Origin: Escherichia phage vB_EcoM-12474III
DNA length: 33,807 nt
Sequence record: NC_049457.1
Direction: 5' to 3' (one strand)
Under the pieces are notes generated by a model. That model saw only the letters and a program-made list of their open reading frames with translations. It had not been told where the DNA came from and made no database searches. Position numbers and translations under genes: made by a program. This document shows, piece after piece, positions 3,601 to 29,062 of the stretch. Numbering within the stretch: position 1 is the stretch's first letter; the number at the start of each line of letters is the position of its first letter.

Positions 3601-4634
3601 TGAGCAAGAAAAAAGGGAAAACACCGCAACCTGCGGCAAAAAAAATGACCGCCAGCGCCCCGAAAATGGAGGCATTCACCTTTGGTGAGCCGGTGCCGGT
3701 ACTCGACCGCCGTGACATTCTGGATTACGTCGAGTGCATCAGTAACGGCAGATGGTATGAGCCGCCGGTCAGCTTTACCGGTCTGGCAAAAAGCCTGCGT
3801 GCTGCCGTACATCACAGCTCACCGATTTACGTCAAACGTAATATTCTGGCCTCGACATTTATCCCGCATCCGTGGCTTTCCCAGCAGGATTTCAGCCGCT
3901 TTGTGCTGGATTTTCTGGTGTTCGGTAATGCGTTTCTGGAAAAGCGTTACAGCACTACCGGTAAGGTCATCAGACTGGAAACCTCACCGGCGAAATATAC
4001 CCGTCGTGGCGTGGAAGAGGATGTTTACTGGTGGGTGCCGTCCTTCAACGAGCCGACAGCCTTCGCGCCCGGCTCCGTGTTTCATCTGCTGGAGCCGGAT
4101 ATTAATCAGGAGCTGTACGGCCTGCCGGAATATCTCAGCGCCCTTAACTCTGCCTGGCTGAATGAGTCGGCCACGCTGTTCCGCCGCAAGTATTACGAAA
4201 ACGGCGCTCATGCCGGATATATCATGTACGTCACTGATGCCGTGCAGGATCGCAACGATATCGAAATGCTCCGCGAAAACATGGTGAAGTCGAAAGGCCG
4301 CAACAACTTTAAAAATCTGTTTCTCTATGCCCCACAGGGGAAAGCCGACGGCATCAAAATTATCCCGCTCAGTGAAGTGGCAACGAAGGACGATTTTTTT
4401 AATATCAAAAAAGCCAGCGCCGCTGACCTGCTGGACGCGCACCGCATCCCCTTTCAGTTGATGGGCGGCAAGCCGGAGAACGTCGGGTCACTGGGCGATA
4501 TTGAGAAAGTGGCAAAGGTCTTTGTCCGCAATGAGCTTATCCCGTTACAGGATAGGATCCGCGAGATAAACGGCTGGCTCGGTCAGGAGGTCATCCGCTT
4601 TAAAAACTACTCACTGGACACTGACAACGGCTGA
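3600..4634 (+). CDS. Q: Portal protein gpQ
   Basis: 344-aa ORF MSKKKGKTPQPAAKKMTASAPKMEAFTFGEP...; same length as P2 gpQ; its start overlaps the P stop (TGATG). Confidence 0.92.
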   Translation: MSKKKGKTPQPAAKKMTASAPKMEAFTFGEPVPVLDRRDILDYVECISNGRWYEPPVSFTGLAKSLRAAVHHSSPIYVKRNILASTFIPHPWLSQQDFSRFVLDFLVFGNAFLEKRYSTTGKVIRLETSPAKYTRRGVEEDVYWWVPSFNEPTAFAPGSVFHLLEPDINQELYGLPEYLSALNSAWLNESATLFRRKYYENGAHAGYIMYVTDAVQDRNDIEMLRENMVKSKGRNNFKNLFLYAPQGKADGIKIIPLSEVATKDDFFNIKKASAADLLDAHRIPFQLMGGKPENVGSLGDIEKVAKVFVRNELIPLQDRIREINGWLGQEVIRFKNYSLDTDNG

Positions 4635-4803: not shown

Positions 4804-4822
4804 GTGCTTTCCCGCCTCGCCC
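4804..4822. other. cos: cos cohesive-end site (19 nt)
   Basis: Minus strand reads GGGCGAGGCGGGAAAGCAC, near-identical to the P2 cohesive end as I recall it (GGCGAGGCGGGGAAAGCAC); it lies about 170 bp beyond the Q stop, as in P2. Confidence 0.7.
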
Positions 4823-5008
4823 GCCCGCTTCATGGGTCGGTTTTAATGCAGTTGCATAACATATTATTCATAGCACCACTGTGAGTTTATGGCTTCATTT
4901 TAGCGAGTTACTTACGCATGCATTTTAATGCACATAATTGCAGTTCTAGCCTACGTTTAACTCCAGTGTTAATCTTTGCATATCACCATATCTAATGAGA
5001 TTAGAGTT

Positions 5009-6127
5009 ATGACAGAAAGCCTTGATTACATCGACCTCAATAAACTTGAGCTTGATACAAAAAATCCACGTCTTCCTGAAGGTGTTGAACGTACCCCAGA
5101 AGCAATGCTAAATCATATAGCTCTAACAACCTCTATTGAAGACTTGATGAATGCAATCGCAGAAAATGGATTTTTTCCTGGCGAGCCTCTTATTGCGGTT
5201 AAAGAGGGAGATAAGTACACCGTTGTGGAAGGCAACCGTCGCTTAACGGCAGTTAAACTTATTCATAACCCATATGAGTGCGACAGACCCAGCTCCCGGA
5301 TGATAGAAATCGCCGAAAGCGCTAAAGATAAACTAGGTACACTAGAAAAATTACCAGTGATCGTTAGAGATACCAGAGCTGAAATTTTACCTTATTTGGG
5401 TTTCAGACATATCACTGGTGTCAAACAATGGGAACCTCTATCGAAGGCTCGTTATATCGAGCAACTTTTTGGGCTCACCTCCCCAAACTCACCGACTAAT
5501 GATCGATATCATCAGGTTGCTCGTGCAATTGGTAGCAGAAAAGATCATATCAAGAGAAATCTAGATGCTTTAGCCGTTTATAAAGTAATGGAGAGCAATA
5601 ACTTTTATGATATTGATGGATTAGATGAAGAATCGATCAAGTTTTCAATTTTATCTACAGCCTTAGCTGACGAGAAAATTGGATTGTTTGTTGGCGTCTC
5701 AGAAAAAGACGAATATGGTGATATTACATCCAATGATGTAATAATTCACCCACATCATATAAATAGAGAAAATACCAGAGAACTTACACTATGGCTTTAT
5801 AAAAAGGATGATTCCGGGAAAACAAAGGTTGGAGAGTCCCGAAATTTACGCCTATTATCTTCTGTTATTGATAACCCCAAGGCTTTAACGTCCTTTAGAA
5901 ACGGGGCTGACCTTAAGGTTGCGTATCAGTTAACTGAAGACTTAAAACAAGATTTCATGACGTTACTTTATAAAGCTGAATCTGCATTAATTGAAGCGGC
6001 TGGAATTGTTGCAACCATTGATTACAATCCTGAAGCATTGGAAGTTGCAAGACGCCTAAGTCAAAATGTCAAACTTATTGGTAATACAATTAAAGCCAAA
6101 AAGGTTTCTGACGATGAAGATTTTTAA
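5009..6127 (+). CDS. ParB/Srx-fold (ParB N-terminal nuclease-like) domain protein, cargo gene
   Basis: N-terminus carries ParB-type motifs DTKNPR (aa 16-21) and VVEGNRRLTAV (aa 72-82, the GxRR box); ATG at 5009 follows a GAG-rich RBS; AT-rich relative to the core; overlaps the start of the next gene. Confidence 0.6.
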   Translation: MTESLDYIDLNKLELDTKNPRLPEGVERTPEAMLNHIALTTSIEDLMNAIAENGFFPGEPLIAVKEGDKYTVVEGNRRLTAVKLIHNPYECDRPSSRMIEIAESAKDKLGTLEKLPVIVRDTRAEILPYLGFRHITGVKQWEPLSKARYIEQLFGLTSPNSPTNDRYHQVARAIGSRKDHIKRNLDALAVYKVMESNNFYDIDGLDEESIKFSILSTALADEKIGLFVGVSEKDEYGDITSNDVIIHPHHINRENTRELTLWLYKKDDSGKTKVGESRNLRLLSSVIDNPKALTSFRNGADLKVAYQLTEDLKQDFMTLLYKAESALIEAAGIVATIDYNPEALEVARRLSQNVKLIGNTIKAKKVSDDEDF

Positions 6128-7106
6128 AATCGGAGACATTCATCCTAGTGTTCCTCATCTTTTTGCAGACCTTGCAGAACTTGCTACGGTTATAAATTAT
6201 TCTGGTCGTTATGATCTACATAAAAATGACCTCATAACAATAAGAACTCAAAGTAACACAAGTGTGGATGATATTGATCAAGAATATCAAGAAGATGAAA
6301 ATGAAGGCTGCGATGCTGAACGCAATGACCGTTTAGAAAGACAAGTTGAAGATGTCTGGACGCAACTCGATTTTAGACAAAATTTTCTCAAGGATATTTA
6401 TCCATTTATTATTAATGGTGACTTTATTTCATTGAAAGAAAACCTCACTGAGATACAAAGAATATATATTTTCTTACTCGCATGCTCGAGGTTACGTTCT
6501 TTCACAAAGGCTAGGCAAGGAATAATACAGTTTTGGGCAAAAAATTTTGCTGTCGTAAGTAAATTTTGTGCAACAGCACTACTCCCAGCACACTCAACTG
6601 TACGAGTATTTGACGCAAACTCAGATGACAGGCGAAAATATTATGGTACTGATTTAAGAAAAGCCTTGAAAAGGCTAGGAAAAGACTTAGCTGTTCCTTA
6701 TATTAATGAGCAAGAGTGCGAAAGAGCTGATCCGAGAGGTGATGGTGGTTTTGATATAGTTGCAACTATAGAATTTGAAGATAAATTAAGTAGTAACTTT
6801 GCCTTTTTAGGTCAATGTGGAGCCCAAGAAAGAGATTGGCCCAAAAAAACACTTGAAGCCCACTCATTGAAACTACGAACATATTTTCAAGTGCATTTTG
6901 ACATACCAACTCTAATGTTTACCCCCGTATTCTATCGAAACTCAGATGGTCAATGGGTAGACAATAGCCCTTGCGCTGGAGTATTGATCATTGACAGAGC
7001 AAGGATATTACAGCTTTTAAAAAAGACAAACCATTGCCCTAAAATAGTTTCAGAACAATGGTTTCTTGATTTCGAACAAATTATCAATGATCTTAAGGTC
7101 GAATAA
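6114..7106 (+). CDS. Hypothetical protein with a possible PD-(D/E)xK nuclease motif; operon partner of the ParB-fold gene
   Basis: ATG at 6114 overlaps the upstream gene end (6127); protein contains RGDGGFDIVATIEFEDK (aa 208-224), reminiscent of the Mrr-type GDGGxD ... ExK catalytic signature; AT-rich. Confidence 0.5.
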   Translation: MKIFKIGDIHPSVPHLFADLAELATVINYSGRYDLHKNDLITIRTQSNTSVDDIDQEYQEDENEGCDAERNDRLERQVEDVWTQLDFRQNFLKDIYPFIINGDFISLKENLTEIQRIYIFLLACSRLRSFTKARQGIIQFWAKNFAVVSKFCATALLPAHSTVRVFDANSDDRRKYYGTDLRKALKRLGKDLAVPYINEQECERADPRGDGGFDIVATIEFEDKLSSNFAFLGQCGAQERDWPKKTLEAHSLKLRTYFQVHFDIPTLMFTPVFYRNSDGQWVDNSPCAGVLIIDRARILQLLKKTNHCPKIVSEQWFLDFEQIINDLKVE

Positions 7107-8045
7107 CTAATCCCAAATATCTGGAAGAGATTTAGCAACCGCCTCAAATAAAGGAGGCGGAACAGCATTGCCAACTACTGTATACTTCATATTAATAGAA
7201 GCCCGTTCAGTTTCTGGAAAAATTAGGTCTCCAAAACCCTGTAAAATAGCGGCCTCTCGATAACTAAACCTACGAGCTGGTGCATCCGAAGTAAATTGCC
7301 ACTTATCTGGACCCAATTTTTCTAATGTTGGACTTATTGGATGTAGAGGCATATGTCTAGGATTTGCAACAATTGTTTTAGATATCTGATCCCAATCTTG
7401 CCGACGGTTGCGCGATAGATAATACCAATGAAAATCGGCATCATAAAACTCACCAATAGGCCAAACAGGCATATGACCAATAGCATCACGAATTGTTGAA
7501 TATGGTTTCAAGCCATCACCATGTGTTGGTTTTGGAAATTTGTATGTAATACCATAGTCTTTTCGTATTCCTACGATAAAGATTCTCTTCCTATCTTGTG
7601 ATACGCCATAGTGGGACGCATTCAGAATTTGCGAGCTTACTGTATAACCTGCTTCTTCGAAAACTTTGAATTGATCCTTTAACAAATGTTCAAAGTTACG
7701 CCTTACCATTCCAGAAACATTCTCTACAATGAATGCTTTTGGCTTAATCTTTCTCAAAGCACGAGCAAACTCTAAATATAGAGTATTAATCTTTCTATCT
7801 GCCTTCCTTGCTCCACCCTGGCTAAATCCCTGGCAAGGATAGCATCCGATAAGCAATTCGGCAGAAGGGAACGATTGGAGTCCTGAAATATCGCCCAATA
7901 TGTAATCAGTTTCAGGATGGTTTTCTAAGTAAACGTCCCTTGCATAAGGCAAAATATCGTTTGCCATCAGCACATTGAACCCTGCTCTCAAAACTCCCGC
8001 ATCAGAACCACCACATCCAGAAAAAAGTGAAACTACAGTTGGCAT
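7107..8045 (-). CDS. DNA (cytosine-5)-methyltransferase
   Basis: Canonical C5-MTase motifs: FSGCGG (motif I, aa 8-13), PCQGFS (motif IV, aa 70-75), ENV (motif VI, aa 108-110), a QDRKR motif (VIII-like) and a C-terminal GNAVPPPL; convergent with, and abutting, the 6114..7106 gene. Confidence 0.88.
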   Translation of the reverse strand: MPTVVSLFSGCGGSDAGVLRAGFNVLMANDILPYARDVYLENHPETDYILGDISGLQSFPSAELLIGCYPCQGFSQGGARKADRKINTLYLEFARALRKIKPKAFIVENVSGMVRRNFEHLLKDQFKVFEEAGYTVSSQILNASHYGVSQDRKRIFIVGIRKDYGITYKFPKPTHGDGLKPYSTIRDAIGHMPVWPIGEFYDADFHWYYLSRNRRQDWDQISKTIVANPRHMPLHPISPTLEKLGPDKWQFTSDAPARRFSYREAAILQGFGDLIFPETERASINMKYTVVGNAVPPPLFEAVAKSLPDIWD

Positions 8046-8257
8046 CGCCCCTCCTAAAAACCGACCGCGTATTATAGCGAAACCACCCCTTGGGAAAAGC
8101 TAGATTTCGCCAAGTTTTGATATTCTCATGTTTTAGTAGTTGTGGCCATCTTTAACGAGAGAAAGATGAAATTGAGTTCTCATTAATTTTCAATAGGTTT
8201 AATTGTAAACACAGCAGGAATCAAAGCTAACACGTCGCTACGCTCATTGTTCAACCC

Positions 8258-8290
8258 CGCCATCTCTGAAAACAAGTTTCAGAAATGGCG
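8258..8290. promoter_or_regulatory. Imperfect palindrome upstream of the methyltransferase gene
   Basis: cgccatctctgaaa-acaag-tttcagaaatggcg, 13/14 complementary arms; sits in an AT-rich spacer about 210 bp upstream of the MTase start. Confidence 0.35.
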
Positions 8291-8296
8291 AGTATA

Positions 8297-8542
8297 CTAC
8301 ATCCTATGCGGTAGTTTCTTAGGCATGTTTGCTGGTCGAAATACCTCAATTTTCTGTCTACTGATATCGTTAAACCGTCTGTAATTATCCCGGACCATTT
8401 CGGCACACCCGACCAGCTCATCAGGCGTCAGATTTTCGTTGACCATAATCTGCTGTAGACGGTGGACAATGGCCATCAGCTTGATATTTTTAGTTTTATG
8501 CTGCGGTATCTCGCCTGGTATTCTGTGCATTATCCAAGCCAC
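8297..8542 (-). CDS. Small hypothetical protein (81 aa; start uncertain, possibly 8476)
   Basis: ORF only; occupies the position of the small post-A ORFs in P2-like phages. Confidence 0.4.
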   Translation of the reverse strand: MAWIMHRIPGEIPQHKTKNIKLMAIVHRLQQIMVNENLTPDELVGCAEMVRDNYRRFNDISRQKIEVFRPANMPKKLPHRM

Positions 8543-8982
8543 CCGTTTTGCTGTGCACGCTCCATCTGTTCATCTGAATAGTTCCATGCTCCATCCGTGG
8601 CAACCATTGCCCCGCCAGACACCCCCGTCTCTGGTTCATACATAACAGCAAGGCCGAGCTGATGCATAATTTCATGATTAATTCTGAATACCAGGCCACG
8701 CTCACTAAGTTCTTTCCAGTTCACAATCTCATATGCGCTTGTATTAAGCAGCTCAATACTTAGCAAGACATAATCTTCCAGCCAGTCTGACAGGTCAGTA
8801 ACATCTGTTATCCGGGCTTCAACCTTTCGCCCCGTAAACACACCCTGTACCCATTCATGCAAAATCAGCGTATCCCCGCGCTCATAATTACGGTCATTTT
8901 TCCGAAACTCTGCACGTTTCTTTCCTTCCAGCACAAGGTCGAAATATTTTGCGTGCAGCTTTACCTCGTGAATTTTTGCCAT
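8530..8982 (-). CDS. ASCH/DUF3850-like protein with a C-terminal HExxH motif
   Basis: MAKIHEVKLHAKYFDLVLEGKKRAEFRKNDRNYERGDTLILHEW... resembles PUA-like ASCH/DUF3850 domains; C-terminal part contains HEIMH followed by YEPE; ATG at 8982 overlaps the end of A. Confidence 0.6.
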   Translation of the reverse strand: MAKIHEVKLHAKYFDLVLEGKKRAEFRKNDRNYERGDTLILHEWVQGVFTGRKVEARITDVTDLSDWLEDYVLLSIELLNTSAYEIVNWKELSERGLVFRINHEIMHQLGLAVMYEPETGVSGGAMVATDGAWNYSDEQMERAQQNGWLG

Positions 8983-11267
8983 GATGTCCACTCCATTACT
9001 GTTGAGAATCCCGGCCACACATCAGCGACCAGATACGTGAATTTTTTTCCGTCATAATTTACGGTTGCTCCACGCGCCAGCGCCTCAAGTTCCCATCGCT
9101 GAGGCCAGATGCCGTTCTGAGCAAGGTCAACACGGATACGGGTAATTTGCATACGCTCCGACCGGGTCAGCCTGGCCGATGGCGCTATTTCATTCGGTTT
9201 TAACGGGCTTCCGTTTCTTTGCTGACGGTTTGGTGTTCTCAGGCCGTGTTTTAATGCGCCCCTGAGCGCCCTCACGACCTCCGGGTCATTCCATTCGATA
9301 ACACCGTCATCAACCAGATTAAGCACGGCTGCGGCGCGCTCAGAAGGTGTGGGAGCCGGTAACGAAGTATCACCACCGGTGAGCTTTCCACAGTTATTGA
9401 CAGGACTCCGAGGCGCGGCGATGCCGCTTTTTAAAGTCAAAGGCTCAACGACCGGCACTTTCGGAACAATGCGCCAGTCCGTCGTTCTGGTGATATGAAT
9501 ATGACGCGCGCCGAGATGCGGCGCGTAAATGCCGACCACTCTCTCGACTTCTTCCTCGTACTCGTTAACTTCATCCGACGGACTACGGGCGACCCTGACA
9601 GTCTGACAATCGCGCGGGACATTTGCCCCACCCTGCGCGCTGATATACAGCGCAAAATCACCACTGTCTGCGGCGGCGCGTGCAGCCTCGACGCGCTCGT
9701 CAAACTCATCAGCAATGCTGACGCCGCGAGGCAATTTGCGTAGTTCACGGTAAGCCCCCATTGTCGGCAGGCCAACCGTTTTAAATTGCGGAATGCGCCA
9801 CGTTGACGCCCATGCGGTAACAGCCGCGGCAGTATCTTTCAGCGGTCTGCCGGTATCGTTATCGAGCTGCCCATCCAGTGCATAGCCGTCGATATTTTTT
9901 GAGATGTATTTCGCGATATACCCCGCAGCACCGCCCCGATTAAGATGTTTTGCCTGAAAACGGTTTCGCGCGGCTCCTCTTTCGTCGCCATCCTCTTTGA
10001 GCGCATAGCGACGCATGATTTCAATAATCTGGTTACGCTGGCGTGGATTACAAAAAAGCATCATATGCCAGTGCGGCGTTCCGTCGTGGTGTGGCTCAAC
10101 GACACGCAAACCGTAGGCCTGTAAATCATTATCCTTGAATGCCGTGCGCATCAGGCTCCAGATACGGCAGAGATAACGCTGCGCATCCTTTGGATTAAAT
10201 GCCTCATGGTTCCAGCCGTGATTAAGCTGGACGGTTTTACTTTCGCCTTTTCCGACCTGACGTGTCGGGTGATACTTTGACGGCGCGGTCAGCGTGATAA
10301 ACATCCCCACATCACCCTCTGCGGCGGCGTAACGCTCAATACCGGCAATGGTGTTCATCAGCTCCATCCGGCGAATTTCAGGATTAGAAATACTGCCCAT
10401 CACCTTACTGATAAGGTCGATGCGTTCGCCGGTTTCCCTGTTTTCAAGGTCACACGATTTAAGAAATTCCAGATTTGCCTGGCGGCGTGCACGTACATCA
10501 CGAATGGCATGTTTACTGGCATAAGGAGAACGGTCTTTATTCACCGCCCCGACAGCAATCAGTAACGCCTCATGCCAGCGCATACGCTGGCCTTTAAGCT
10601 GATGAGCCCACCACTCATCGTTAAACAGACGGGCAATGGCAGAATATGCCTGCCTCGTGGTCATCTGCCCTTTACGGTATTTTTTCCAGTAGAGAGGGGA
10701 AATATTGAAAGCTCGTGCAGCGCCAGCAACATGACCATACAGGTGAGCCTGCGCCTCATCCGTAAACAGCGATTCTTTCTCGCCATGCGCATCCACCCAG
10801 GCATCGCTGAGTTCCTCATACATCATGAAAAGCTGCGATGAGATACGGGCGGCAAATTTTTTCAGCTCCTTGTCATTCATTCCCGGCAGGCGCGCATAGT
10901 GGTCACGCTCTGCCAGAAACAGTAACGACGCGTCGGTGTTCATTTCATGGCGCTGATTCACACGCTCAATGCGCGGCCATAAACGACGCTGAAAAGTGGA
11001 TGTGAGAAAATAAAACCCGTGCACCGGGCTTTTATTGCGCCGGATGTAGTCATAGCGTGAAGTAAACAGCGAGCGCAAAAAGTAAGGCAGGCGGTTAATC
11101 GTGGATAAAACACCTTGCACCTGACGCATCTCGTCACGTGTAAGGGGTCTTTCGCGCCCGACAGCCTCGCGTGGCGCGTTCCATGCATAAGCACCGGTAA
11201 ACGCCTTACCGGTGCCTGCGGCAAATGCTGACGGAGGGACAAAACGCCCGGAGGCTTTAACGGCCAT
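8961..11267 (-). CDS. A: Rolling-circle replication initiator endonuclease gpA
   Basis: Long ORF; from MAVKASGRFVPPSAFAAGTGK... it matches P2 gpA as I recall it (about 761 aa); start chosen at that Met. Confidence 0.9.
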   Translation of the reverse strand: MAVKASGRFVPPSAFAAGTGKAFTGAYAWNAPREAVGRERPLTRDEMRQVQGVLSTINRLPYFLRSLFTSRYDYIRRNKSPVHGFYFLTSTFQRRLWPRIERVNQRHEMNTDASLLFLAERDHYARLPGMNDKELKKFAARISSQLFMMYEELSDAWVDAHGEKESLFTDEAQAHLYGHVAGAARAFNISPLYWKKYRKGQMTTRQAYSAIARLFNDEWWAHQLKGQRMRWHEALLIAVGAVNKDRSPYASKHAIRDVRARRQANLEFLKSCDLENRETGERIDLISKVMGSISNPEIRRMELMNTIAGIERYAAAEGDVGMFITLTAPSKYHPTRQVGKGESKTVQLNHGWNHEAFNPKDAQRYLCRIWSLMRTAFKDNDLQAYGLRVVEPHHDGTPHWHMMLFCNPRQRNQIIEIMRRYALKEDGDERGAARNRFQAKHLNRGGAAGYIAKYISKNIDGYALDGQLDNDTGRPLKDTAAAVTAWASTWRIPQFKTVGLPTMGAYRELRKLPRGVSIADEFDERVEAARAAADSGDFALYISAQGGANVPRDCQTVRVARSPSDEVNEYEEEVERVVGIYAPHLGARHIHITRTTDWRIVPKVPVVEPLTLKSGIAAPRSPVNNCGKLTGGDTSLPAPTPSERAAAVLNLVDDGVIEWNDPEVVRALRGALKHGLRTPNRQQRNGSPLKPNEIAPSARLTRSERMQITRIRVDLAQNGIWPQRWELEALARGATVNYDGKKFTYLVADVWPGFSTVMEWTSWQKFTR

Positions 11268-21973: not shown

Positions 21974-23056
21974 TTGAAACCAGAGCAAATGAAAAACAGG
22001 GAAGAATTAACTAGCTTTGCAACGAAACTTGCTACTCAAATCAAGATGCAAACCAGCAGCAATTTAAATGATCTTTCTACAGCCCAAGAGAGCTCGCTAT
22101 TGCCTCTAATCAATCATGCCTGGGGAGAGCAGTTTGAGGATATGAATAGGATATCCCAAAACTACCCTGGTCTCGACTATGTGCAACCGGGAAAGCGCTT
22201 AGGTTTGCAAATGACTGCCACTGCAAGAAAGGTTAAGTATCAGAAAACATTAGACAAACTTCGAAATAATGAGAAGTTAAAGGGTAAGTTTGACGAGATT
22301 TGGTTTTTCGTCCTCACGGCTGAACGCCTACCTGATAACGTACGTGAACACCCTGACGATTTTCAGTGCAAATATTTCACATTGTACGACCTAGTCGAAA
22401 AGGTAATGGGACAGACTTTAGAATTTCAGCGTGATTTTTTGACCCTTGCCCGGAAAGAATACTCGGATTATTTCTCTCCTGGGGACGTTGCTTTCAATCA
22501 GGGGTATTGTGTATCAGAAAACAAGCCGATCCCCTTTGACTTGAGTCTTTTCAACGCGTTAATTCATACTAATGAATGGTTTGATGATGTTGACGAAGGT
22601 GAGCAGATCGTATATGAATTTCTAGAACTTTTTAAAAATAGACTGCGTCAATGCACTTTATCTGCTAGAAATCTTTTAAGCAAAATTATCAGTGAGATAA
22701 ATATACCGAAGAGTACAAGCACGAAAATCGAGTTTCCTGAAAAGCAACTTTTCGGGCCACTAATGATTGACGATACAAACTATCAATCTTTTTCAAAAGA
22801 CCTTGATGATTTGTTCGAGATGAGTCTTATTGAACGATGGGACAATTATGTTGGAATGTACTATAAGGGTGATGATGCATATATCAAAAATGAACGTATG
22901 ATCAGCGTGTCATTTCCAAAGATTGAACCCGAAATGAATCTGTATGCGGCGTTATATATCTTTTATGAAAAAAATCATGATATTGCAAAACTTGTGAACG
23001 CAATTGAAAATAGTGATTTTTCTCTGCTCGCTGACAGCACTTGCCAAAATAATTAG
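21974..23056 (+). CDS. Hypothetical 360-aa protein, AT-rich cargo between FI and G (start TTG at 21974 with GGAG 8 nt upstream; alternative ATG at 21989)
   Basis: Long ORF on the strand opposite to all flanking late genes; visibly AT-rich codon usage; no transmembrane segments; no family recognised. Confidence 0.7.
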   Translation: MKPEQMKNREELTSFATKLATQIKMQTSSNLNDLSTAQESSLLPLINHAWGEQFEDMNRISQNYPGLDYVQPGKRLGLQMTATARKVKYQKTLDKLRNNEKLKGKFDEIWFFVLTAERLPDNVREHPDDFQCKYFTLYDLVEKVMGQTLEFQRDFLTLARKEYSDYFSPGDVAFNQGYCVSENKPIPFDLSLFNALIHTNEWFDDVDEGEQIVYEFLELFKNRLRQCTLSARNLLSKIISEINIPKSTSTKIEFPEKQLFGPLMIDDTNYQSFSKDLDDLFEMSLIERWDNYVGMYYKGDDAYIKNERMISVSFPKIEPEMNLYAALYIFYEKNHDIAKLVNAIENSDFSLLADSTCQNN

Positions 23057-23307
23057 TTAGTAAAAGGATGCATTTATGCTCTTAGTTACTCACTCTGTTG
23101 AATTTATTTTAAGTTATTAATATAGATATGGGCTTATATATCTTTAATAGAAATGACTAGCGTGAAAAATATGGGGCTAACTGGTCTGCCTCTCTTTTGA
23201 CCAAGACAATTTGCTGGAAAACTTCCGCTCTTGGCACAGAGCGGACTGTCAGATTAGACTTTACTCTGTGCCATAGATATGTAAGCTCCCACCAGAGCTC
23301 ATACAAC

Positions 23308-23835
23308 TTACTGCGGCATTTCCGGCCATTCAGGATTTGCAGGATCCACACGACTGACCAGAACACTGTAGCGTTCCCATGCTTCCAGTCGGCTGCGTTC
23401 CTCCTCTGTTGCCATATTCAGCCTGACAGCGCGCTCCAGCAGCAAAATCACGGATTCAGCTTCGGAAAGTAAAGTTGCCTTTTGTGATTCTGCCAGTTGA
23501 TGCTGTTCGTCTGCCGTATAAATCCGCTTAATCACGGCACCATCCTTAAACATCCATTTACCTGAGTCATCAGCACGTCGGTTGGCGGTAATATCAGGAA
23601 CCTCGACAACGCTAAAACCTTCAGGGTTAAGCGTTGAAGCATCTCTGGTGATGCCGACAATTATATTATTCTCGTCGTAAACAATCTTTATCGTGTCTTC
23701 CTGAAAATTACTTACTTCCTCATACCAGTTTTTTCCGTCTTCAGACCATAACCAGACAACATCAAAATTTTTTGTCAGTTGATATTGGGCAACAGTTTTG
23801 GGATTACCCGCAGTAATATTTTTTAAATGCTGCAT
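23308..23835 (-). CDS. G: Tail fiber assembly protein gpG
   Basis: 175-aa ORF, matching P2 gpG length and position downstream of H. Confidence 0.85.
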
Positions 23836-23838
23836 AAA

Positions 23839-25767
23839 TTACACCTGTGCGACGTTATACCATGTGCCATTAATGTATTTTTGTATTGGTCTGAATACTG
23901 CGGGGTCATCACCATCGACTTCACCGACAATACCAAGCCCTGTAATTACATGGCCTGATTTTTCATACATCACACCTTTTTGCATAGTCTGAACAACACG
24001 TGTGCCCAGGCGAATATCTCGTACATAGCGAGAATCCGATTCAGCTTTGGTATATGCACCAACATCTCCCGCAGAGGGTTTGCGGGTTGTGGTGTAAAAC
24101 TCTGACCAGTTAGCCTCAAATCCATAACCATCACGTGCTGAACGATAAAAAATACCGCCGTTCTTATAATTCACACGGAACTGTACGGCAGGGCAACTCC
24201 CCGCATTCATATTGAAGTGGAGGATTAATGTCGATGCACCGCTGATATCTGCATCATAAACACCGCTATTCCAGTTCCAGCCAACAGCTTTATCATTTGC
24301 AACCCTGCTTCCTGTTTGCCCTAAAGCAAATGCAGGCTGCTGGTTTTTCGTGTTGTAGTCTCGTCGCCAGCCGGGGGCATAAGCATCACCATGATTAATA
24401 TAAGTGAATTGAGCGTTAGTGGTGCCGCCTCCGGTAGAAGTGCTTGGTGTTGTTACACGGATGGTCATGGCACCTTTATTACCCATAACCTCAATAACGC
24501 AACCTGCAAGATGAATAGTTCCACAGCCAGTATCGGTAATAATTTTATTATTGCCGTATGACCATGAACATTTGCACATCCAGTACGGATGATTAAATGC
24601 ACCACGGGAATCCAGCCATTCAATAAACTGAGCGGTTGTCCAGTTTCCGGCTTCAGTGCTCAAAGCGCCGCTATAAGCACGACAGGCACCGATATTTTTC
24701 GTGAAGGTATCCTTTCCCGGAATATCCGCACCGTTCTGATCTTTCTGAAGACGTTTTTCAGCATTGTCATAGGCAGACTTCACTGCTTTTGGTGTTGCGG
24801 CCAGCGTTTCAGAATCACTGTTGGCGGCGCTACTGAGCTGAACAAGACCTTTCCGCGCCGTGGTGGCGTCCTGTGCAGTGTATTTCCCGTTAGCAAGGTC
24901 ATACGCGGCCTTTACCGCCTTTGGCGTTGCCGCAAGCGTTTCAGAATCGCTGTTGGTGACGCTACTGAGCTGGACAAGACCTTTTCGCGCTGTGGTGGCG
25001 TCCTGTGCGGTATATTTCCCGTTAGCAAGGTCATATGCTGCTTTTACCGCTTTTGGTGTTGCGGCAAGCGTTTCAGACGTGCTGTTGGTGGCACTACTGA
25101 GCTGGACAAGACCTTTTCGCGCTGTGGTAGCGTCCTGTGCGGTATATTTCCCGTTAGCCAGGTCATATGCGGCCTTAACCGCTTTCGGCGTTGCAGCCAG
25201 TGTTTCAGACGTGCTGTTGGTCGCACTGCTTAACTGAGTAAAACCTTTTGCGGTCAGCGAGGCGTCCGGGTGACGTCGTGACTGTTCATGTTCTGCAATT
25301 TTGTCATCAACGTAATCCTGCGTCGCCATCACCGTTGTGGTGTCAATGGTCAGCTCCACTGAGGTCACACTGCTGACGATGATGACCATGCGACAGGTCT
25401 GCGAACGCCCTGAGCCTTCGGCAAGAGCTGGCTTATAACTTTCGGCCATGTTCGCCACGGCAATTAATGTTCCCGCATCATCGTACAGGCCAAGCTCACG
25501 CATCCAGAAACCGCCCACCTCCGGCGGAATAACCAGCTCTGCGATAATATAATTACTGTTTCGTTTGTCCTGGCTGATTTTGTTCAGCGCATGTCGCCAG
25601 ACTTCATGGATAAGCCCGGTCTGTCCGGCATCCGGGACAGGCAATTTACCACCGCCATCCCCGACGGCCATCGTGGTAATGTTGACCTTCCGCCCTCCCG
25701 GCGCGGTTGCCGCTGCCAGCTTTGCTGCACCGGCAGTGGTGATAACGGTTCTGAATTTTGTGCTCAT
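23839..25767 (-). CDS. H: Tail fiber protein gpH
   Basis: 642-aa ORF; N-terminus MSTKFRTVITTAGAAKLAAATAPGGRKVNITTMAVGDGGG... is P2 H-like; contains internal 44-aa tandem repeats. Confidence 0.9.
   Translation of the reverse strand: MSTKFRTVITTAGAAKLAAATAPGGRKVNITTMAVGDGGGKLPVPDAGQTGLIHEVWRHALNKISQDKRNSNYIIAELVIPPEVGGFWMRELGLYDDAGTLIAVANMAESYKPALAEGSGRSQTCRMVIIVSSVTSVELTIDTTTVMATQDYVDDKIAEHEQSRRHPDASLTAKGFTQLSSATNSTSETLAATPKAVKAAYDLANGKYTAQDATTARKGLVQLSSATNSTSETLAATPKAVKAAYDLANGKYTAQDATTARKGLVQLSSVTNSDSETLAATPKAVKAAYDLANGKYTAQDATTARKGLVQLSSAANSDSETLAATPKAVKSAYDNAEKRLQKDQNGADIPGKDTFTKNIGACRAYSGALSTEAGNWTTAQFIEWLDSRGAFNHPYWMCKCSWSYGNNKIITDTGCGTIHLAGCVIEVMGNKGAMTIRVTTPSTSTGGGTTNAQFTYINHGDAYAPGWRRDYNTKNQQPAFALGQTGSRVANDKAVGWNWNSGVYDADISGASTLILHFNMNAGSCPAVQFRVNYKNGGIFYRSARDGYGFEANWSEFYTTTRKPSAGDVGAYTKAESDSRYVRDIRLGTRVVQTMQKGVMYEKSGHVITGLGIVGEVDGDDPAVFRPIQKYINGTWYNVAQV
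24760..25250. repeat. Tandem 132-bp coding repeat (about 3.7 copies) inside tail fiber gene H
   Basis: gttagcaagg / gttagccagg landmarks recur at 24889, 25021 and 25153 (period 132); the protein repeats KGLVQLSSATNSTSETLAATPKAVKAAYDLANGKYTAQDATTAR. Confidence 0.9.
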
Positions 25768-27561: not shown

Positions 27562-28193
27562 AAAGGACTCCCGGTTGTGCCGCCGCTGTCGCCGGGGTGT
27601 TTGTGGGTATGCAGTACCTTACCGTTTGATGAGAGTTCACCGCCGGTGTGTTCAATGTTGCCGCGCATCGTCCCGCCCTTCTGTACTTCCAGCGTGCCGG
27701 TAATCAGCCTGTTGGTGCAGACCACCTCCGGTGTGTCCAGGGTGACGCGGGTTGATGCTTTCACCATGACCACCGGCACCGTGGCAGTAACAGAATCAGA
27801 AGCCGTCACGCTGGCCGTTTTAATTCCGCTTGCCGTGAGTGCACTGGTTTCGGGTTCATATTCAATCACCGCCCCGTCAGGGAAACGGATATGCAGGGCA
27901 TCCGCCGACGCAGACGGCGCGGGGTTATCGCCGGAATAAATCCCCGGCAGAACGAACGCCGTGTCGAGTTCACCGCCCACGGCCAGAATCAGCACCTGCT
28001 CCCCCACGGAAGGTGCCCACCATGTGCGCGAACGACCGGCACGATGGGTCAGCCACTGAAGCCAGTCAGTGCACATGCCGCCGGTCTGCACACGGCAGCG
28101 ACCGGCGTTAAGGTCGGTTTCGACGATAATGCCGGTGCGAATCATGTTGCGCAGTGCGCGCGCGAGTTCCTGAATATTTGCGAGAGTGTTCAT
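27558..28193 (-). CDS. V: Baseplate spike protein gpV
   Basis: MNTLANIQELARALRNMIRTGIIVETDLNAGRCRVQTGG... from the ATG at 28193; 211 aa, as in P2 gpV. Confidence 0.9.
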   Translation of the reverse strand: MNTLANIQELARALRNMIRTGIIVETDLNAGRCRVQTGGMCTDWLQWLTHRAGRSRTWWAPSVGEQVLILAVGGELDTAFVLPGIYSGDNPAPSASADALHIRFPDGAVIEYEPETSALTASGIKTASVTASDSVTATVPVVMVKASTRVTLDTPEVVCTNRLITGTLEVQKGGTMRGNIEHTGGELSSNGKVLHTHKHPGDSGGTTGSPL

Positions 28194-28276
28194 GCATGTG
28201 AGATTGCACAATATATAAAAGTTATGCTATCTGGATTCATTTGTAGAACTACCAGACAACATTCAAGGAGAGCGTA

Positions 28277-29062
28277 ATGGTCAGCTATAATGTGACTAAT
28301 GTGTGGGGGCTAATCGTTTTTTTCCTTTGTAGCTTTGCAGTATTAGCATTTTTTAGCTTTGGTAAAAGTAACCTTATGAGGCTTATTGCACATTATTTCA
28401 ATTTTGGATATTCAGACAAAAAATTAAAAAGACTTGACCGCGAGTGGCGCGACATTCAACTATTTAAAATAATTAACGGAATCAATGTATCAGGCATTGA
28501 AAATGTGAGAATGATACAGCAGGGACTGATTGATGGAAAACTAAAAACATCGTATTTTTTCCTTACTCGCATCTGGGGTGACATAACAAAACCACCACAC
28601 ATAATTAAAACAATAATTGTAATTCTGGCCAGTATTTTTTACATTCTCCTCGCATGTTATATACACAACAAACAATCCGCTATAGTAAGAGATGCCATAG
28701 GCATACCATATAAAAATATGATGTACTATGTTTATAGTGACAAAGTTCTTTTATCCTTCAACAATAAAACAGTTGAATTCAATAAAACTTATAGCCTTGC
28801 CGATTGCAAGAGGCTACGAAACGTATTTATAAAAGACACACTTCCTGAGATCGCCTGCAATAAGCTCTTACAGCTAAACGAGGAGGACTCCGAATGGTTA
28901 AGTCAGGAGATTAAAGATAATAACAGCCAAAAAAAAGCATTATTAATAATATCCCTCATCTATTTCATTTCAGGTCTGGTTATATTCCTGTCATATACAA
29001 AATTCCTTTACGCCAATAAGAAGGTTGTAGAATACAAAGCATCAAATAAAAATCACTCATAA
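28277..29062 (+). CDS. Predicted membrane protein (261 aa), AT-rich cargo between V and S
   Basis: ATG at 28277 with an AGGAG RBS 6 nt upstream; three hydrophobic helix-like segments (aa about 10-30, 115-135, 225-245); strongly AT-rich; strand opposite to the flanking late genes. Confidence 0.75.
   Translation: MVSYNVTNVWGLIVFFLCSFAVLAFFSFGKSNLMRLIAHYFNFGYSDKKLKRLDREWRDIQLFKIINGINVSGIENVRMIQQGLIDGKLKTSYFFLTRIWGDITKPPHIIKTIIVILASIFYILLACYIHNKQSAIVRDAIGIPYKNMMYYVYSDKVLLSFNNKTVEFNKTYSLADCKRLRNVFIKDTLPEIACNKLLQLNEEDSEWLSQEIKDNNSQKKALLIISLIYFISGLVIFLSYTKFLYANKKVVEYKASNKNHS

What the first reader, a model, noticed from the sequence alone, without database searches (positions are those of the whole stretch)
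5009..6127. ParB/Srx-fold protein with the GxRR box changed to GNRR
The N-terminal 90 residues follow the ParB N-terminal domain pattern (DTKNPR, then VVEGNRRLTAV), but the remaining roughly 280 residues show no helix-turn-helix centromere-binding region or recognisable partition-protein features. ParB-fold domains recur as NTPase or nuclease modules in defense proteins (DndB and DUF262/GmrS-type families). The operon context with a nuclease-like partner favours a defense role over plasmid partitioning.
Basis: partly seen in the sequence, partly recalled or inferred. Interest (0 to 1): 0.6.

Follow-up and report, generated by a model that had tools for sequence, protein, structure and literature searches.

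The report
ParB-like restriction subunit in prophage
The gene encodes a ParB-type nucleotide-switch protein that is not a partition protein; it always travels with a novel nuclease gene and a DNA-marking enzyme, so it is most likely one subunit of an undescribed, widespread restriction-modification-like anti-phage system carried by a P2-like prophage.

Summary
Window 5009-6127 (+) encodes a 372-aa protein whose first ~158 residues are a ParB/Srx domain (DTKNPR, EGNRR, plus an invariant RHITG loop).

The gene sits in a 38% GC cargo island at the old/tin hotspot of a P2-like prophage of E. coli O145:H28. It overlaps by 14 nt a 330-aa gene with no Pfam or PADLOC match, which models as winged helix plus restriction-endonuclease fold. 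A convergent C5 cytosine methyltransferase follows.

- Across 68 loci from several phyla, the two genes are adjacent in 67.
- Of 49 loci with full flanks, 27 carry the C5 methylase, 18 carry dndCDE (phosphorothioation), 4 carry neither, and none carry both.
- In 5426 E. coli genomes the methylase occurs 140 times, matching 36 window-type plus 104 Wphi-type pairs.
- Phage Wphi has a 98%-identical methylase but a pair only 32% and 25% identical, swapped as one block.

My best reading is a split, NTP-gated ParB-nuclease restriction effector coupled to a self-marking enzyme. It is related to PD-lambda-5 only through the ParB module and is analogous to GmrSD, SspE and DndI. There is no ParA and no parS. 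No function was tested experimentally.

The parts
4860..5008 (+). AT-rich upstream (promoter/leader) region belonging to the exchangeable ORF1-ORF2 block. It contains TTTTAATGCA x2 and the palindrome ATGCAgtTGCAT (4846-4857 straddles the boundary).
   Evidence: Nucleotide similarity to phage Wphi stops at 4859 and resumes at 7108. Repeats were found. No motif is conserved across homologous loci. No strong sigma-70 consensus was found here.
5009..6127 (+). ORF1, 372 aa (the finding): ParB/Srx-type predicted NTP-binding subunit. The C-terminal two-thirds are helical with no catalytic signature. The protein ends in an acidic ...SDDEDF tail.
5009..5482 (+). ParB-N module (aa 1-158), shared with PD-lambda-5_A-type proteins. 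Motifs: DTKNPR 5054-5071, EGNRR 5228-5242, RHITG loop 5405-5419.
   Evidence: PADLOC matches are limited to aa 5-158. hhalign with Vibrio phage ValB1MD-2 gp42 covers aa 8-158. Family-wide invariant residues are E59, E74, G75, N76, R78, G131, R133, H134, I135, G137, W141 and K146. The RHITG loop is the only low-confidence internal segment of the model.
6114..7106 (+). ORF2, 330 aa, overlapping ORF1 by 14 nt. It has an N-terminal winged-helix domain and a C-terminal PD-(D/E)xK-like (MspJI/NgoMIV-like) nuclease domain. Candidate catalytic residues are D214 (6753-6755), Q234 (6813-6815) and K245 (6846-6848).
7107..8045 (-). C5 cytosine DNA methyltransferase (312 aa), convergent with ORF1-ORF2. This is the self-marking component.
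   Evidence: Pfam DNA_methylase E 3.7e-62. M.HaeIII is the best solved relative, aligned through the target-recognition domain. It is 98% identical to Wphi mth.
7028..7064 (-). Terminator-like hairpin (17-bp stem followed by a T run) on the minus strand, 43 nt downstream of the methyltransferase stop and embedded in the 3' coding region of ORF2.
   Evidence: Consensus scan only. Function is inferred.

Best explanation
ORF1 is the ParB/Srx-type nucleotide-binding subunit of a two-subunit restriction effector. Its partner is ORF2, a winged-helix plus PD-(D/E)xK nuclease. Together with the convergent C5 methyltransferase they form a three-gene, restriction-modification-like anti-phage cassette carried as cargo in the old/tin hotspot of a P2-like prophage.

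Proposed mechanism (inferred):
1. The methyltransferase marks the lysogen's DNA with m5C.
2. ORF1 binds DNA and uses NTP binding and hydrolysis in its ParB pocket (NPR, EGNRR, RHITG) as a switch that senses the mark.
3. On marked self DNA the complex is released or kept inactive.
4. On unmarked incoming DNA, ORF1 licenses ORF2 to cut.

In a sister clade the same ORF1-ORF2 pair is wired to dndCDE, so phosphorothioate replaces m5C as the self mark.

Shown by computation: the ParB fold, the obligate ORF1-ORF2 pairing and co-evolution, the linkage to a modification module, and the cargo/hotspot location.
Inferred: NTPase activity, nuclease activity, physical complex formation, and the direction of the modification effect.
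For: 1. ParB/Srx fold with all family-invariant residues concentrated in aa 59-146.
2. An ORF2 homolog lies immediately downstream of ORF1 in 67 of 68 loci with room, usually with overlapping stop and start, across Proteobacteria, Bacteroidota, Acidobacteriota, Spirochaetota and Firmicutes. ORF1 and ORF2 distance matrices correlate at r = 0.95, against 0.36 for ORF1 and the MTase.
3. ORF2 models as wHTH plus restriction-endonuclease fold by two methods. It has invariant D214 and Q234 with near-invariant K245, resembling the MspJI D-x20-QxK motif.
4. A modification module is adjacent in 45 of 49 loci with full flanks: 27 C5-MTase, 18 dndCDE, never both. Dnd-linked ORF1s form one clade nested among MTase-linked clades.
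5. In 5426 complete E. coli genomes the MTase occurs in 140, which equals 36 window-type pairs plus 104 Wphi-type pairs.
6. The MTase is conserved (mean distance 0.31) while the pair evolves fast (0.60-0.67), as is usual for methylase versus nuclease in R-M systems.
7. The pair is exchanged as a block (4860-7107) next to a 98%-identical MTase in phage Wphi. Phage L-413C lost the nuclease and the MTase in a single deletion.
8. The island has 38% GC against 54-55% in the flanks and lies in the known P2 defence hotspot. The same cassette is in Pseudomonas phage D14A.
9. The ParB-N module is homologous to PD-lambda-5 A, an experimentally validated MTase-coupled defence system.
10. DndI and SspE show experimentally that ParB-like NTPase domains sense DNA modification and gate a nuclease (PMC11662687; PMC13251355 abstract).
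Against: - No experiment exists for this cassette.
- Pfam does not hit ORF1 itself.
- Four of 49 loci with full flanks (L008, L021, L022, L076), plus L011 (4952 nt upstream, just under the flank cut-off), have the pair among housekeeping genes with no adjacent modification gene. That is unexpected if the pair is lethal without protection, unless the MTase is encoded elsewhere.
- The Dnd loci also contain other candidate restriction modules: Pbe-type in L061/L065 and GmrSD-type in L039.
- The direction of the modification effect (protective or activating) is not determined by any result.
Confidence: 0.6

Rival explanations
1. Modification-activated effector (SspE-like logic). The ORF1-ORF2 pair is inert on its own. 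It needs the m5C or PT marks on host DNA to activate its NTPase and nuclease against phage DNA, rather than being blocked by them.
For: Solitary pairs without an adjacent modification gene exist (L008, L011, L021, L022), so the pair may be non-toxic when unprotected. SspE works this way (text; PMC13251355 abstract). ORF2's best fold matches, MspJI and AspBHI, are modification-dependent enzymes.
Against: The MspJI/AspBHI similarity is most likely to the generic nuclease domain; no SRA-like reader is detected. The strict MTase-pair co-occurrence in E. coli (140/140 by counts) fits both models. The L-413C co-deletion of nuclease and MTase fits classical R-M slightly better.
Confidence: 0.15
2. 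ORF1 is not part of the nuclease. It is a regulator or modification cofactor: a DndB/KorB-like NTP-dependent repressor controlling the cassette, or a DpdB-like ATPase assisting modification. ORF2 alone is the restriction enzyme.
Against: ORF1 tracks ORF2 (r = 0.95; adjacent in 67 of 68 loci) and not the modification enzyme (r = 0.36), and it is swapped together with ORF2 while the MTase stays. In Dnd operons it lies after dndE, not at the operon start. No upstream motif is conserved across the family. No DndB or DGQHR model is hit.
Confidence: 0.15
3. Compact R-M plus abortive-infection hybrid, as suggested for PD-lambda-5. ORF1-ORF2 is a suicide effector triggered when a phage interferes with methylation or with the complex, killing the cell rather than selectively cutting phage DNA.
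For: [quoted passage not shown] The ParB-N module is shared. Rakesh et al. propose suicide roles for some Dnd-linked nucleases.
Against: The HEPN-type element inferred for PD-lambda-5A is absent here. The match stops at aa 158, and there is no Rx4-6H motif among conserved C-terminal residues. The gene organisation and evolutionary rates look like ordinary R-M.
Confidence: 0.07
4. Genuine partition or segregation ParB of the prophage or of a plasmid-like state.
Against: There is no ParA anywhere in the prophage. P2 integrates, here next to cpxP. No parS-like conserved repeat is present. Homologs occur in chromosomes next to methylases or dnd genes, not next to ParA.
Confidence: 0.01

Closest known systems
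PD-lambda-5 (Vassallo et al. 2022, PMC9519451): ParB/HEPN protein plus D12-class N6-adenine methyltransferase
   Same: The N-terminal ~158-aa ParB module is homologous: all 81 family members hit PD-Lambda-5_A models. Both are prophage-borne and coupled to a DNA methyltransferase. PD-lambda-5 is experimentally validated as broad anti-phage defence.
   Different: The match stops at aa ~158 of profiles 440-590 positions long. The C-terminal part differs, with no HEPN signature. The methyltransferase is C5-cytosine rather than Dam-like. A separate nuclease gene (ORF2), absent from PD-lambda-5 and from every PADLOC model, is obligatory. This cassette has three genes, not two.
GmrS/GmrD, BrxU, SspE and DndI: DUF262 (ParB-like NTPase, DGQQR) plus DUF1524 HNH nuclease
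   Same: A ParB/Srx NTPase is coupled to a DNA nuclease. In SspE and DndI the NTPase senses a DNA modification (PT) and gates DNA binding or cleavage. GmrS/GmrD is a two-polypeptide version (my own knowledge). DUF262 models weakly hit 17 of 81 family members. Part of this family is wired to dndCDE.
   Different: The motif is EGNRR rather than DGQQR, and the domain is closer to partition-type ParB_N. The nuclease has a PD-(D/E)xK-like fold on a separate protein rather than being an HNH. The main partner is an m5C methylase. GmrSD-type enzymes attack modified DNA and have no cognate methylase.
DndB (ParB-superfamily DGQHR protein of dnd clusters)
   Same: A ParB-superfamily protein of similar size that is associated with dnd genes.
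   Different: No DndB (PF14072) or DGQHR model is hit by any of the 81 members. The gene lies after dndE and is always followed by ORF2, rather than lying upstream of dndC. Most family members are linked to C5 methylases, not to dnd.
ParB/KorB/Noc CTP-dependent DNA clamps
   Same: The fold, the NPR (box I-like) motif and the GxRR (box II) arginine pair are shared. KorB and PadC are the best structural matches.
   Different: There is no ParA, no parS and no partition context. All sequence matches are below curated cut-offs. The third motif is a family-specific RHITG loop. Nucleotide specificity is unknown.
Type II/IIM restriction endonucleases with the MspJI/AspBHI or NgoMIV/Cfr10I nuclease core (for ORF2), and classical Type II R-M organisation
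   Same: A convergent MTase and nuclease genes, a conserved methylase with a fast-evolving nuclease, and a PD-(D/E)xK-like fold with a D...Q motif.
   Different: The nuclease has an obligatory ParB-type partner. No sequence family is recognised for it. The same nuclease pair also serves a phosphorothioation module.

Membership tests
ParB/Srx superfamily | ParB/sulfiredoxin alpha/beta fold | tested here: met
ParB/Srx superfamily | Conserved GxxR/GxRR nucleotide-pocket motif | tested here: met
   E74-G75-N76-R77-R78. E, G, N and R78 are invariant, and R77 is conserved in >=90% of 81 sequences. The motif aligns to GERRL of H. pylori Spo0J.
Partition ParB (ParABS) | Cognate ParA ATPase gene nearby | tested here: not met
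   No ParA is annotated anywhere in the prophage. None was seen next to homologs.
Partition ParB (ParABS) | parS centromere repeats | tested here: not met
   Only short TGCA-rich repeats lie upstream. No motif is shared across 20 homologous loci.
Partition ParB (ParABS) | Score above the curated family threshold | tested here: not met
   TIGR00180 scores 24.4 bits against a cut-off of 58.45. Pfam ParB_N does not hit this protein at E<=0.01.
Partition ParB (ParABS) | Central HTH DNA-binding domain | tested here: inconclusive
PD-lambda-5 | A protein: ParB-N followed by the family's C-terminal region (weak HEPN/DUF4145), about 450-500 aa | tested here: not met
   Only aa 5-158 match profile positions 4-166 of 466. 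ORF1 is 372 aa, and no Rx4-6H motif is conserved in the C-terminal half.
PD-lambda-5 | B protein: D12-class N6-adenine methyltransferase | tested here: not met
   The linked enzyme is a C5 cytosine MTase (PF00145, E 3.7e-62). PD-lambda-5B is MethyltransfD12.
PD-lambda-5 | Anti-phage activity | not testable with these tools
   This needs phage challenge of the cloned cassette.
DndB / DGQHR | Match to DndB (PF14072) or TIGR DGQHR/DndB models, and the DGQHR motif | tested here: not met
   0 of 81 members hit these models in Pfam or NCBIfam. The motif here is EGNRR.
GmrSD / SspE / DndI (DUF262 + DUF1524) | DUF262 N-domain with the DGQQR motif | tested here: inconclusive
   GmrSD_N hits 17 of 81 members weakly (best 3.4e-5) but not this protein. 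The motif here is EGNRR.
GmrSD / SspE / DndI (DUF262 + DUF1524) | DUF1524 HNH nuclease domain | tested here: not met
   No HNH or DUF1524 is present in ORF1 or ORF2. ORF2 has a REase-like fold instead.
HEPN | Rx4-6H catalytic motif in a four-helix domain | tested here: not met
Restriction-modification system (Type II-like) | Cognate DNA methyltransferase genetically linked to the nuclease | tested here: met
   A C5-MTase is adjacent in 39 of 68 loci. In E. coli the counts are 140 MTase genes = 36 + 104 pairs.
Restriction-modification system (Type II-like) | Nuclease with a PD-(D/E)xK catalytic core | tested here: inconclusive
Restriction-modification system (Type II-like) | Cleavage of unmodified DNA and protection by the cognate methylation | not testable with these tools
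   This requires transformation or phage assays and in vitro cleavage.

The most novel reading that the evidence does not exclude
ORF1-ORF2 is a modification-agnostic restriction chassis. A ParB-type NTP-gated DNA clamp or switch licenses a dedicated PD-(D/E)xK nuclease on DNA that lacks the host's mark. During evolution the chassis has been re-wired between chemically unrelated marks: base methylation (m5C here; m6A in the PD-lambda-5 relatives that share the ParB module) and backbone phosphorothioation (the dndCDE-linked clade). It would then be a distinct class of restriction-modification system, one in which self/non-self reading is done by a ParB nucleotide switch rather than by the nuclease's own sequence recognition.
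Probability: 0.3. Interest if true: 0.8.

Novelty: new variant of a known kind. Interest (0 to 1): 0.62.

Why it matters
If correct, this defines a widespread defence module. At least 284 sequence clusters at 50% identity match with E<=1e-30, across several phyla and in Peduoviridae of E. coli, Yersinia and Pseudomonas. Current catalogues miss it: ORF2 matches none of the 5027 PADLOC models and no Pfam family.

It links three lines of work that are usually separate: ParB CTPase switches, classical methylation-based restriction, and phosphorothioate-based defence. It also offers a natural experiment, because the same nuclease pair family reads either m5C or PT, and two 30%-identical pairs serve a 98%-identical methylase.

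There is a practical side. The laboratory and industrial strain E. coli W and its derivatives (LY180, KO11FL), described as restriction-minus, carry the sister cassette in prophage Wphi. That could affect their transformability and phage sensitivity.

Tried and rejected
- Pfam on ORF1 and ORF2 gave nothing.
- A profile search of both families against PDB sequences gave only a marginal Spo0J hit for ORF1 and nothing for ORF2.
- DndB identity was rejected: no DndB or DGQHR model was hit by 81 members.
- HEPN in the C-terminal part was rejected: no conserved Rx4-6H and no HEPN fold hits.
- I looked for a conserved operator or parS-like site upstream of ORF1 across 20 loci and found none.
- The AFDB50 fold library was unavailable, so annotated full-length structural relatives could not be retrieved.
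- PDC-M38 could not be traced in the paper library. Its A model (715 positions) overlaps ORF1 aa 41-316, but ORF2 hits no PDC model.
- The published SMRT methylome of RM13514 reports only adenine methylation and is uninformative for m5C.
- Odegrip 2006, on the P2 TO region, is not held. Rousset 2022 does not mention ParB or a methylase at this hotspot. The E. coli W genome paper did not notice the cassette.
- No natural ORF1-ORF2 fusion was seen among the top hits.

Full report
**Observation.** Window 5009-6127 (+) is an intact ORF of 372 codons. Its product contains DTKNPR (aa 16-21) and VVEGNRRLTAV (aa 72-82), exactly as described. RefSeq annotates the same ORF as a 'ParB N-terminal domain-containing protein'. 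Pfam gives no hit at E<=0.01, but the ParB assignment is solid on other evidence:
- PADLOC PD-Lambda-5_A models match aa 5-158 at E 7.5e-23.
- NCBIfam parB_part matches weakly here and in 77 of 81 relatives.
- Pfam ParB_N hits 21 of 81 relatives and GmrSD_N hits 17 of 81.

GNRR is not a change to the GxRR box, because it fits that pattern. E-G-N-(R)-R is invariant across 81 sequences down to about 30% identity.

**Where it is.** The window is 100% identical to a P2-like prophage of E. coli O145:H28, integrated beside cpxP. The gene order is:
- gpO, gpP and gpQ (portal, ending at 4634) and the cos region;
- a 38% GC island within 54-55% GC phage DNA, containing ORF1 (5009-6127, +), ORF2 (6114-7106, +, 14-nt overlap) and a C5 cytosine methyltransferase (7107-8045, -);
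- P2 orf91 (DUF3850) and gpA.

This is the old/tin 'hotspot #1' of P2-like phages, which is known to hold defence cargo (PMC9519451 and its reference to Rousset 2022). No ParA is present anywhere in the prophage.

**The partner gene.** ORF2 has a conserved family of about 330 aa with no Pfam domain and no PADLOC match in any of 73 members.
- Foldseek independently ranks MspJI first (probability 0.98, E 5.5e-3), then BsaWI and AspBHI, though nothing reaches E<=1e-3.
- Family-wide invariant residues are R88, Y118, F145, D214, Q234, R295 and R297, with near-invariant D223, C235 and K245.

D214...Q234 resembles the D-x20-QxK motif of MspJI (my own knowledge of that enzyme). However, the lysine is not at the canonical position, so I call the nuclease assignment probable, not proven.

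**Linkage.** I fetched 80 loci encoding ORF1 relatives from species-representative genomes, plus four from exact look-ups.
- An ORF2 homolog lies immediately downstream in 67 of 68 loci with enough sequence.
- Among 49 loci with full flanks, 27 have a homologous C5 methyltransferase next to the pair, in convergent or co-directional arrangements. Eighteen have dndC-dndD-dndE directly upstream in one tightly packed operon. Four have neither, and none has both.
- The Dnd-linked ORF1s form a single clade nested among methylase-linked clades.
- ORF1 and ORF2 distance matrices correlate at r = 0.95, whereas ORF1 and the methylase give 0.36. The methylase evolves about half as fast, with a mean distance of 0.31 against 0.60-0.67.

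In 5426 complete E. coli genomes the methylase occurs in 140. In 36 it is >=99% identical, matching the 36 genomes with the window-type pair. In 104 it is 90-95% identical, matching the 104 genomes with a second pair type first seen in phage Wphi. This agreement is at the level of counts; I did not check genome by genome.

**Module shuffling.** Phage Wphi (orf98, orf96, mth) has the same arrangement at the same locus. Its methylase is 98% identical (305/312), but its ORF1 and ORF2 are only 32% and 25% identical. Nucleotide similarity between the window and Wphi ends at 4859 and resumes exactly at 7108, the ORF2/methylase junction. So promoter+ORF1+ORF2 is exchanged as one block beside a constant methylase.
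- Yersinia phage L-413C keeps only a truncated ORF1. One deletion (5921-8488) removed the ORF1 C-terminus, ORF2 and the methylase together.
- Pseudomonas phage D14A carries the same three-gene arrangement. Its middle gene is an ORF2-family member (hhalign E 2e-50).
- Vibrio phage ValB1MD-2 has a short protein sharing exactly ORF1 aa 8-158, followed by a hypothetical gene and a DNA adenine methylase.

**Relation to known systems.** PD-lambda-5 (Vassallo 2022) is a validated two-gene defence system, described as 'ParB/HEPN, methyltransferase'. Its A protein has ParBc at residues 6-89 and only a weak HEPN call, its B protein is a D12-class adenine methylase, and cloning it needed an mrr-deleted host. 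ORF1 shares only the first ~158 residues with it. The effector part and the methylase class differ, and ORF2 is new.

DndB is not a match. SspE and DndI are single-chain ParB-like (DGQQR) NTPase plus HNH nucleases in which phosphorothioate modulates the NTPase and thereby DNA binding or cleavage. They are the best mechanistic precedent, and GmrS/GmrD (my own knowledge) is a two-polypeptide precedent. Rakesh et al. 2024 note REase domains fused to HARE-HTH immediately downstream of dnd genes, and note that cytosine methylases can replace PT. I could not establish whether ORF2 is their class, because Pfam HARE-HTH hits 0 of 73 members. The text I searched does not describe a ParB-REase pair or the methylase cassette. 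Literature searches found no description of this cassette.

**Mechanism.** Every family-wide invariant residue of ORF1 except G175 and W262 lies in aa 59-146: E59, EGN-R, G131, RHI-G, W141 and K146. So the functional centre is the ParB nucleotide pocket. The C-terminal two-thirds are helical (long helices 311-334 and 341-364) and have no catalytic-type conservation, which suits DNA binding or partner binding.

I therefore propose an NTP-gated ParB switch that reads the self mark and licenses ORF2 to cut unmarked DNA, with the methylase (or Dnd) protecting the host. The steps shown by computation are the fold, the pairing, the co-evolution, the linkage to modification and the cargo location. 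Nucleotide use, complex formation, nuclease activity and the direction of the modification effect are inferred.

The main uncertainties are:
- the modest fold scores for ORF2;
- the four flank-complete loci (plus L011) where the pair sits among housekeeping genes with no modification gene, which leaves an SspE-like modification-activated model open;
- the alternative that ORF1 is a DndB/KorB/DpdB-like regulator or cofactor, which the ORF1-ORF2 co-evolution and block exchange argue against.

**Verdict.** The gene is one subunit of an uncatalogued three-gene, restriction-modification-like cassette whose ParB-nuclease core is also used with phosphorothioation. It is a new variant of a known kind, not a new principle. 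I score interest at 0.62, because it is widespread, is missed by current tools, can be tested directly, and is present in the common laboratory strain E. coli W.

Noticed in passing
window 4860-7107 versus phage Wphi NC_005056 (L088): Sharp recombination boundaries. Window-to-Wphi nucleotide similarity (91%) covers only 4822-4859 and 7108-9400. The ORF1-ORF2 block has been swapped for a 32%/25%-identical homologous pair beside a 98%-identical methyltransferase.
   Followed up: yes
window 5921-8488 versus Yersinia phage L-413C (L087): The plague-diagnostic phage L-413C carries a deletion remnant of this cassette. Only ORF1 aa 1-309 survive (97.7% identical), and ORF2 and the methyltransferase were lost in a single deletion.
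   Followed up: partly
window 6101-6127 (ORF1 C-terminus): ORF1 ends in an acidic tail with a terminal aromatic residue (…SDDEDF). A D-[DE]-[DE]-F carboxy terminus occurs in 38 of 81 family members: every member of the close clade and most of the Dnd-linked clade. It resembles the SSB C-terminal tip (my own knowledge) and could be a docking peptide.
   Followed up: partly
window 4841-4985: TGCA-rich repeats and palindromes lie upstream of ORF1: TTTTAATGCA at 4841 and 4923, ATGCAgtTGCAT at 4846-4857, and TGCATTttAATGCA around 4919-4932. A similar CATGCA-N6-TGCATG is upstream of the Edwardsiella homolog, but nothing is conserved across the family.
   Followed up: partly
window 7028-7064 (- strand): A 17-bp-stem terminator-like hairpin for the methyltransferase transcript lies inside the 3' coding region of the convergent ORF2.
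   Followed up: no
L037 4363-5967, and homologs in L033, L036, L038, L041-L043, L046, L048, L050-L053, L057, L060, L066, L071: In many Bacteroidota dnd operons upstream of the pair, DndE is fused to an AAA_10/HerA-like ATPase region, giving a ~530-aa protein. A smaller group of loci (L058, L061, L062, L065, L072, L073) has a stand-alone ~130-aa DndE.
   Followed up: no
L061 8036-13015 (- strand), L065, L039, L043: The Dnd-linked loci are composite islands. L061 and L065 have a convergent CxC-type ABC ATPase plus HKD-SF2 helicase (Pbe-like) module, L039 has a GmrSD/DndI-type DUF262+DUF1524 protein, and L043 has a DndA cysteine desulfurase.
   Followed up: partly
E. coli W, LY180, KO11FL (hits H42-H45), prophage Wphi1 at cpxP-fieF: The laboratory and industrial strain E. 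coli W is described in its genome paper as restriction-minus, with prophages encoding nothing of note. It carries the sister ParB-nuclease-methylase cassette at the same attachment site as in this window.
   Followed up: partly
window 7107-8045: The methyltransferase aligns with M.HaeIII (GGCC) along its full length, including the S-R-N-R segment of the target-recognition domain (E 1.3e-49). This suggests a GGCC-like target. The cassette contains 3 GGCC sites in 3186 nt, against 21 in the 4859 nt to its left, but it is also much more AT-rich.
   Followed up: partly
window 8297-9018 (- strand): An 81-aa ORF (RefSeq annotates 77 aa) and a DUF3850/ASCH plus DUF7415 protein (the P2 orf91 equivalent) lie between the methyltransferase and gpA. 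They belong to the conserved phage backbone shared with Wphi and L-413C, not to the cassette.
   Followed up: partly
window ~22000-24000 and ~28000-29000: Two other low-GC stretches (38-42% GC) are host genes outside the prophage. From the annotation offset, 22-24 kb falls on rhaR/rhaS, and the start of the 28-29 kb stretch falls on the carbohydrate porin gene (annotation fetched only up to about window 28300). They appear ordinary.
   Followed up: partly
L086 3958-5040 (outside the window, same prophage): The second P2 hotspot (the Z/fun position, between the tail sheath and tail fibre genes) of this prophage carries a 'SMEK domain-containing protein', which is another likely cargo or defence gene.
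   Followed up: no
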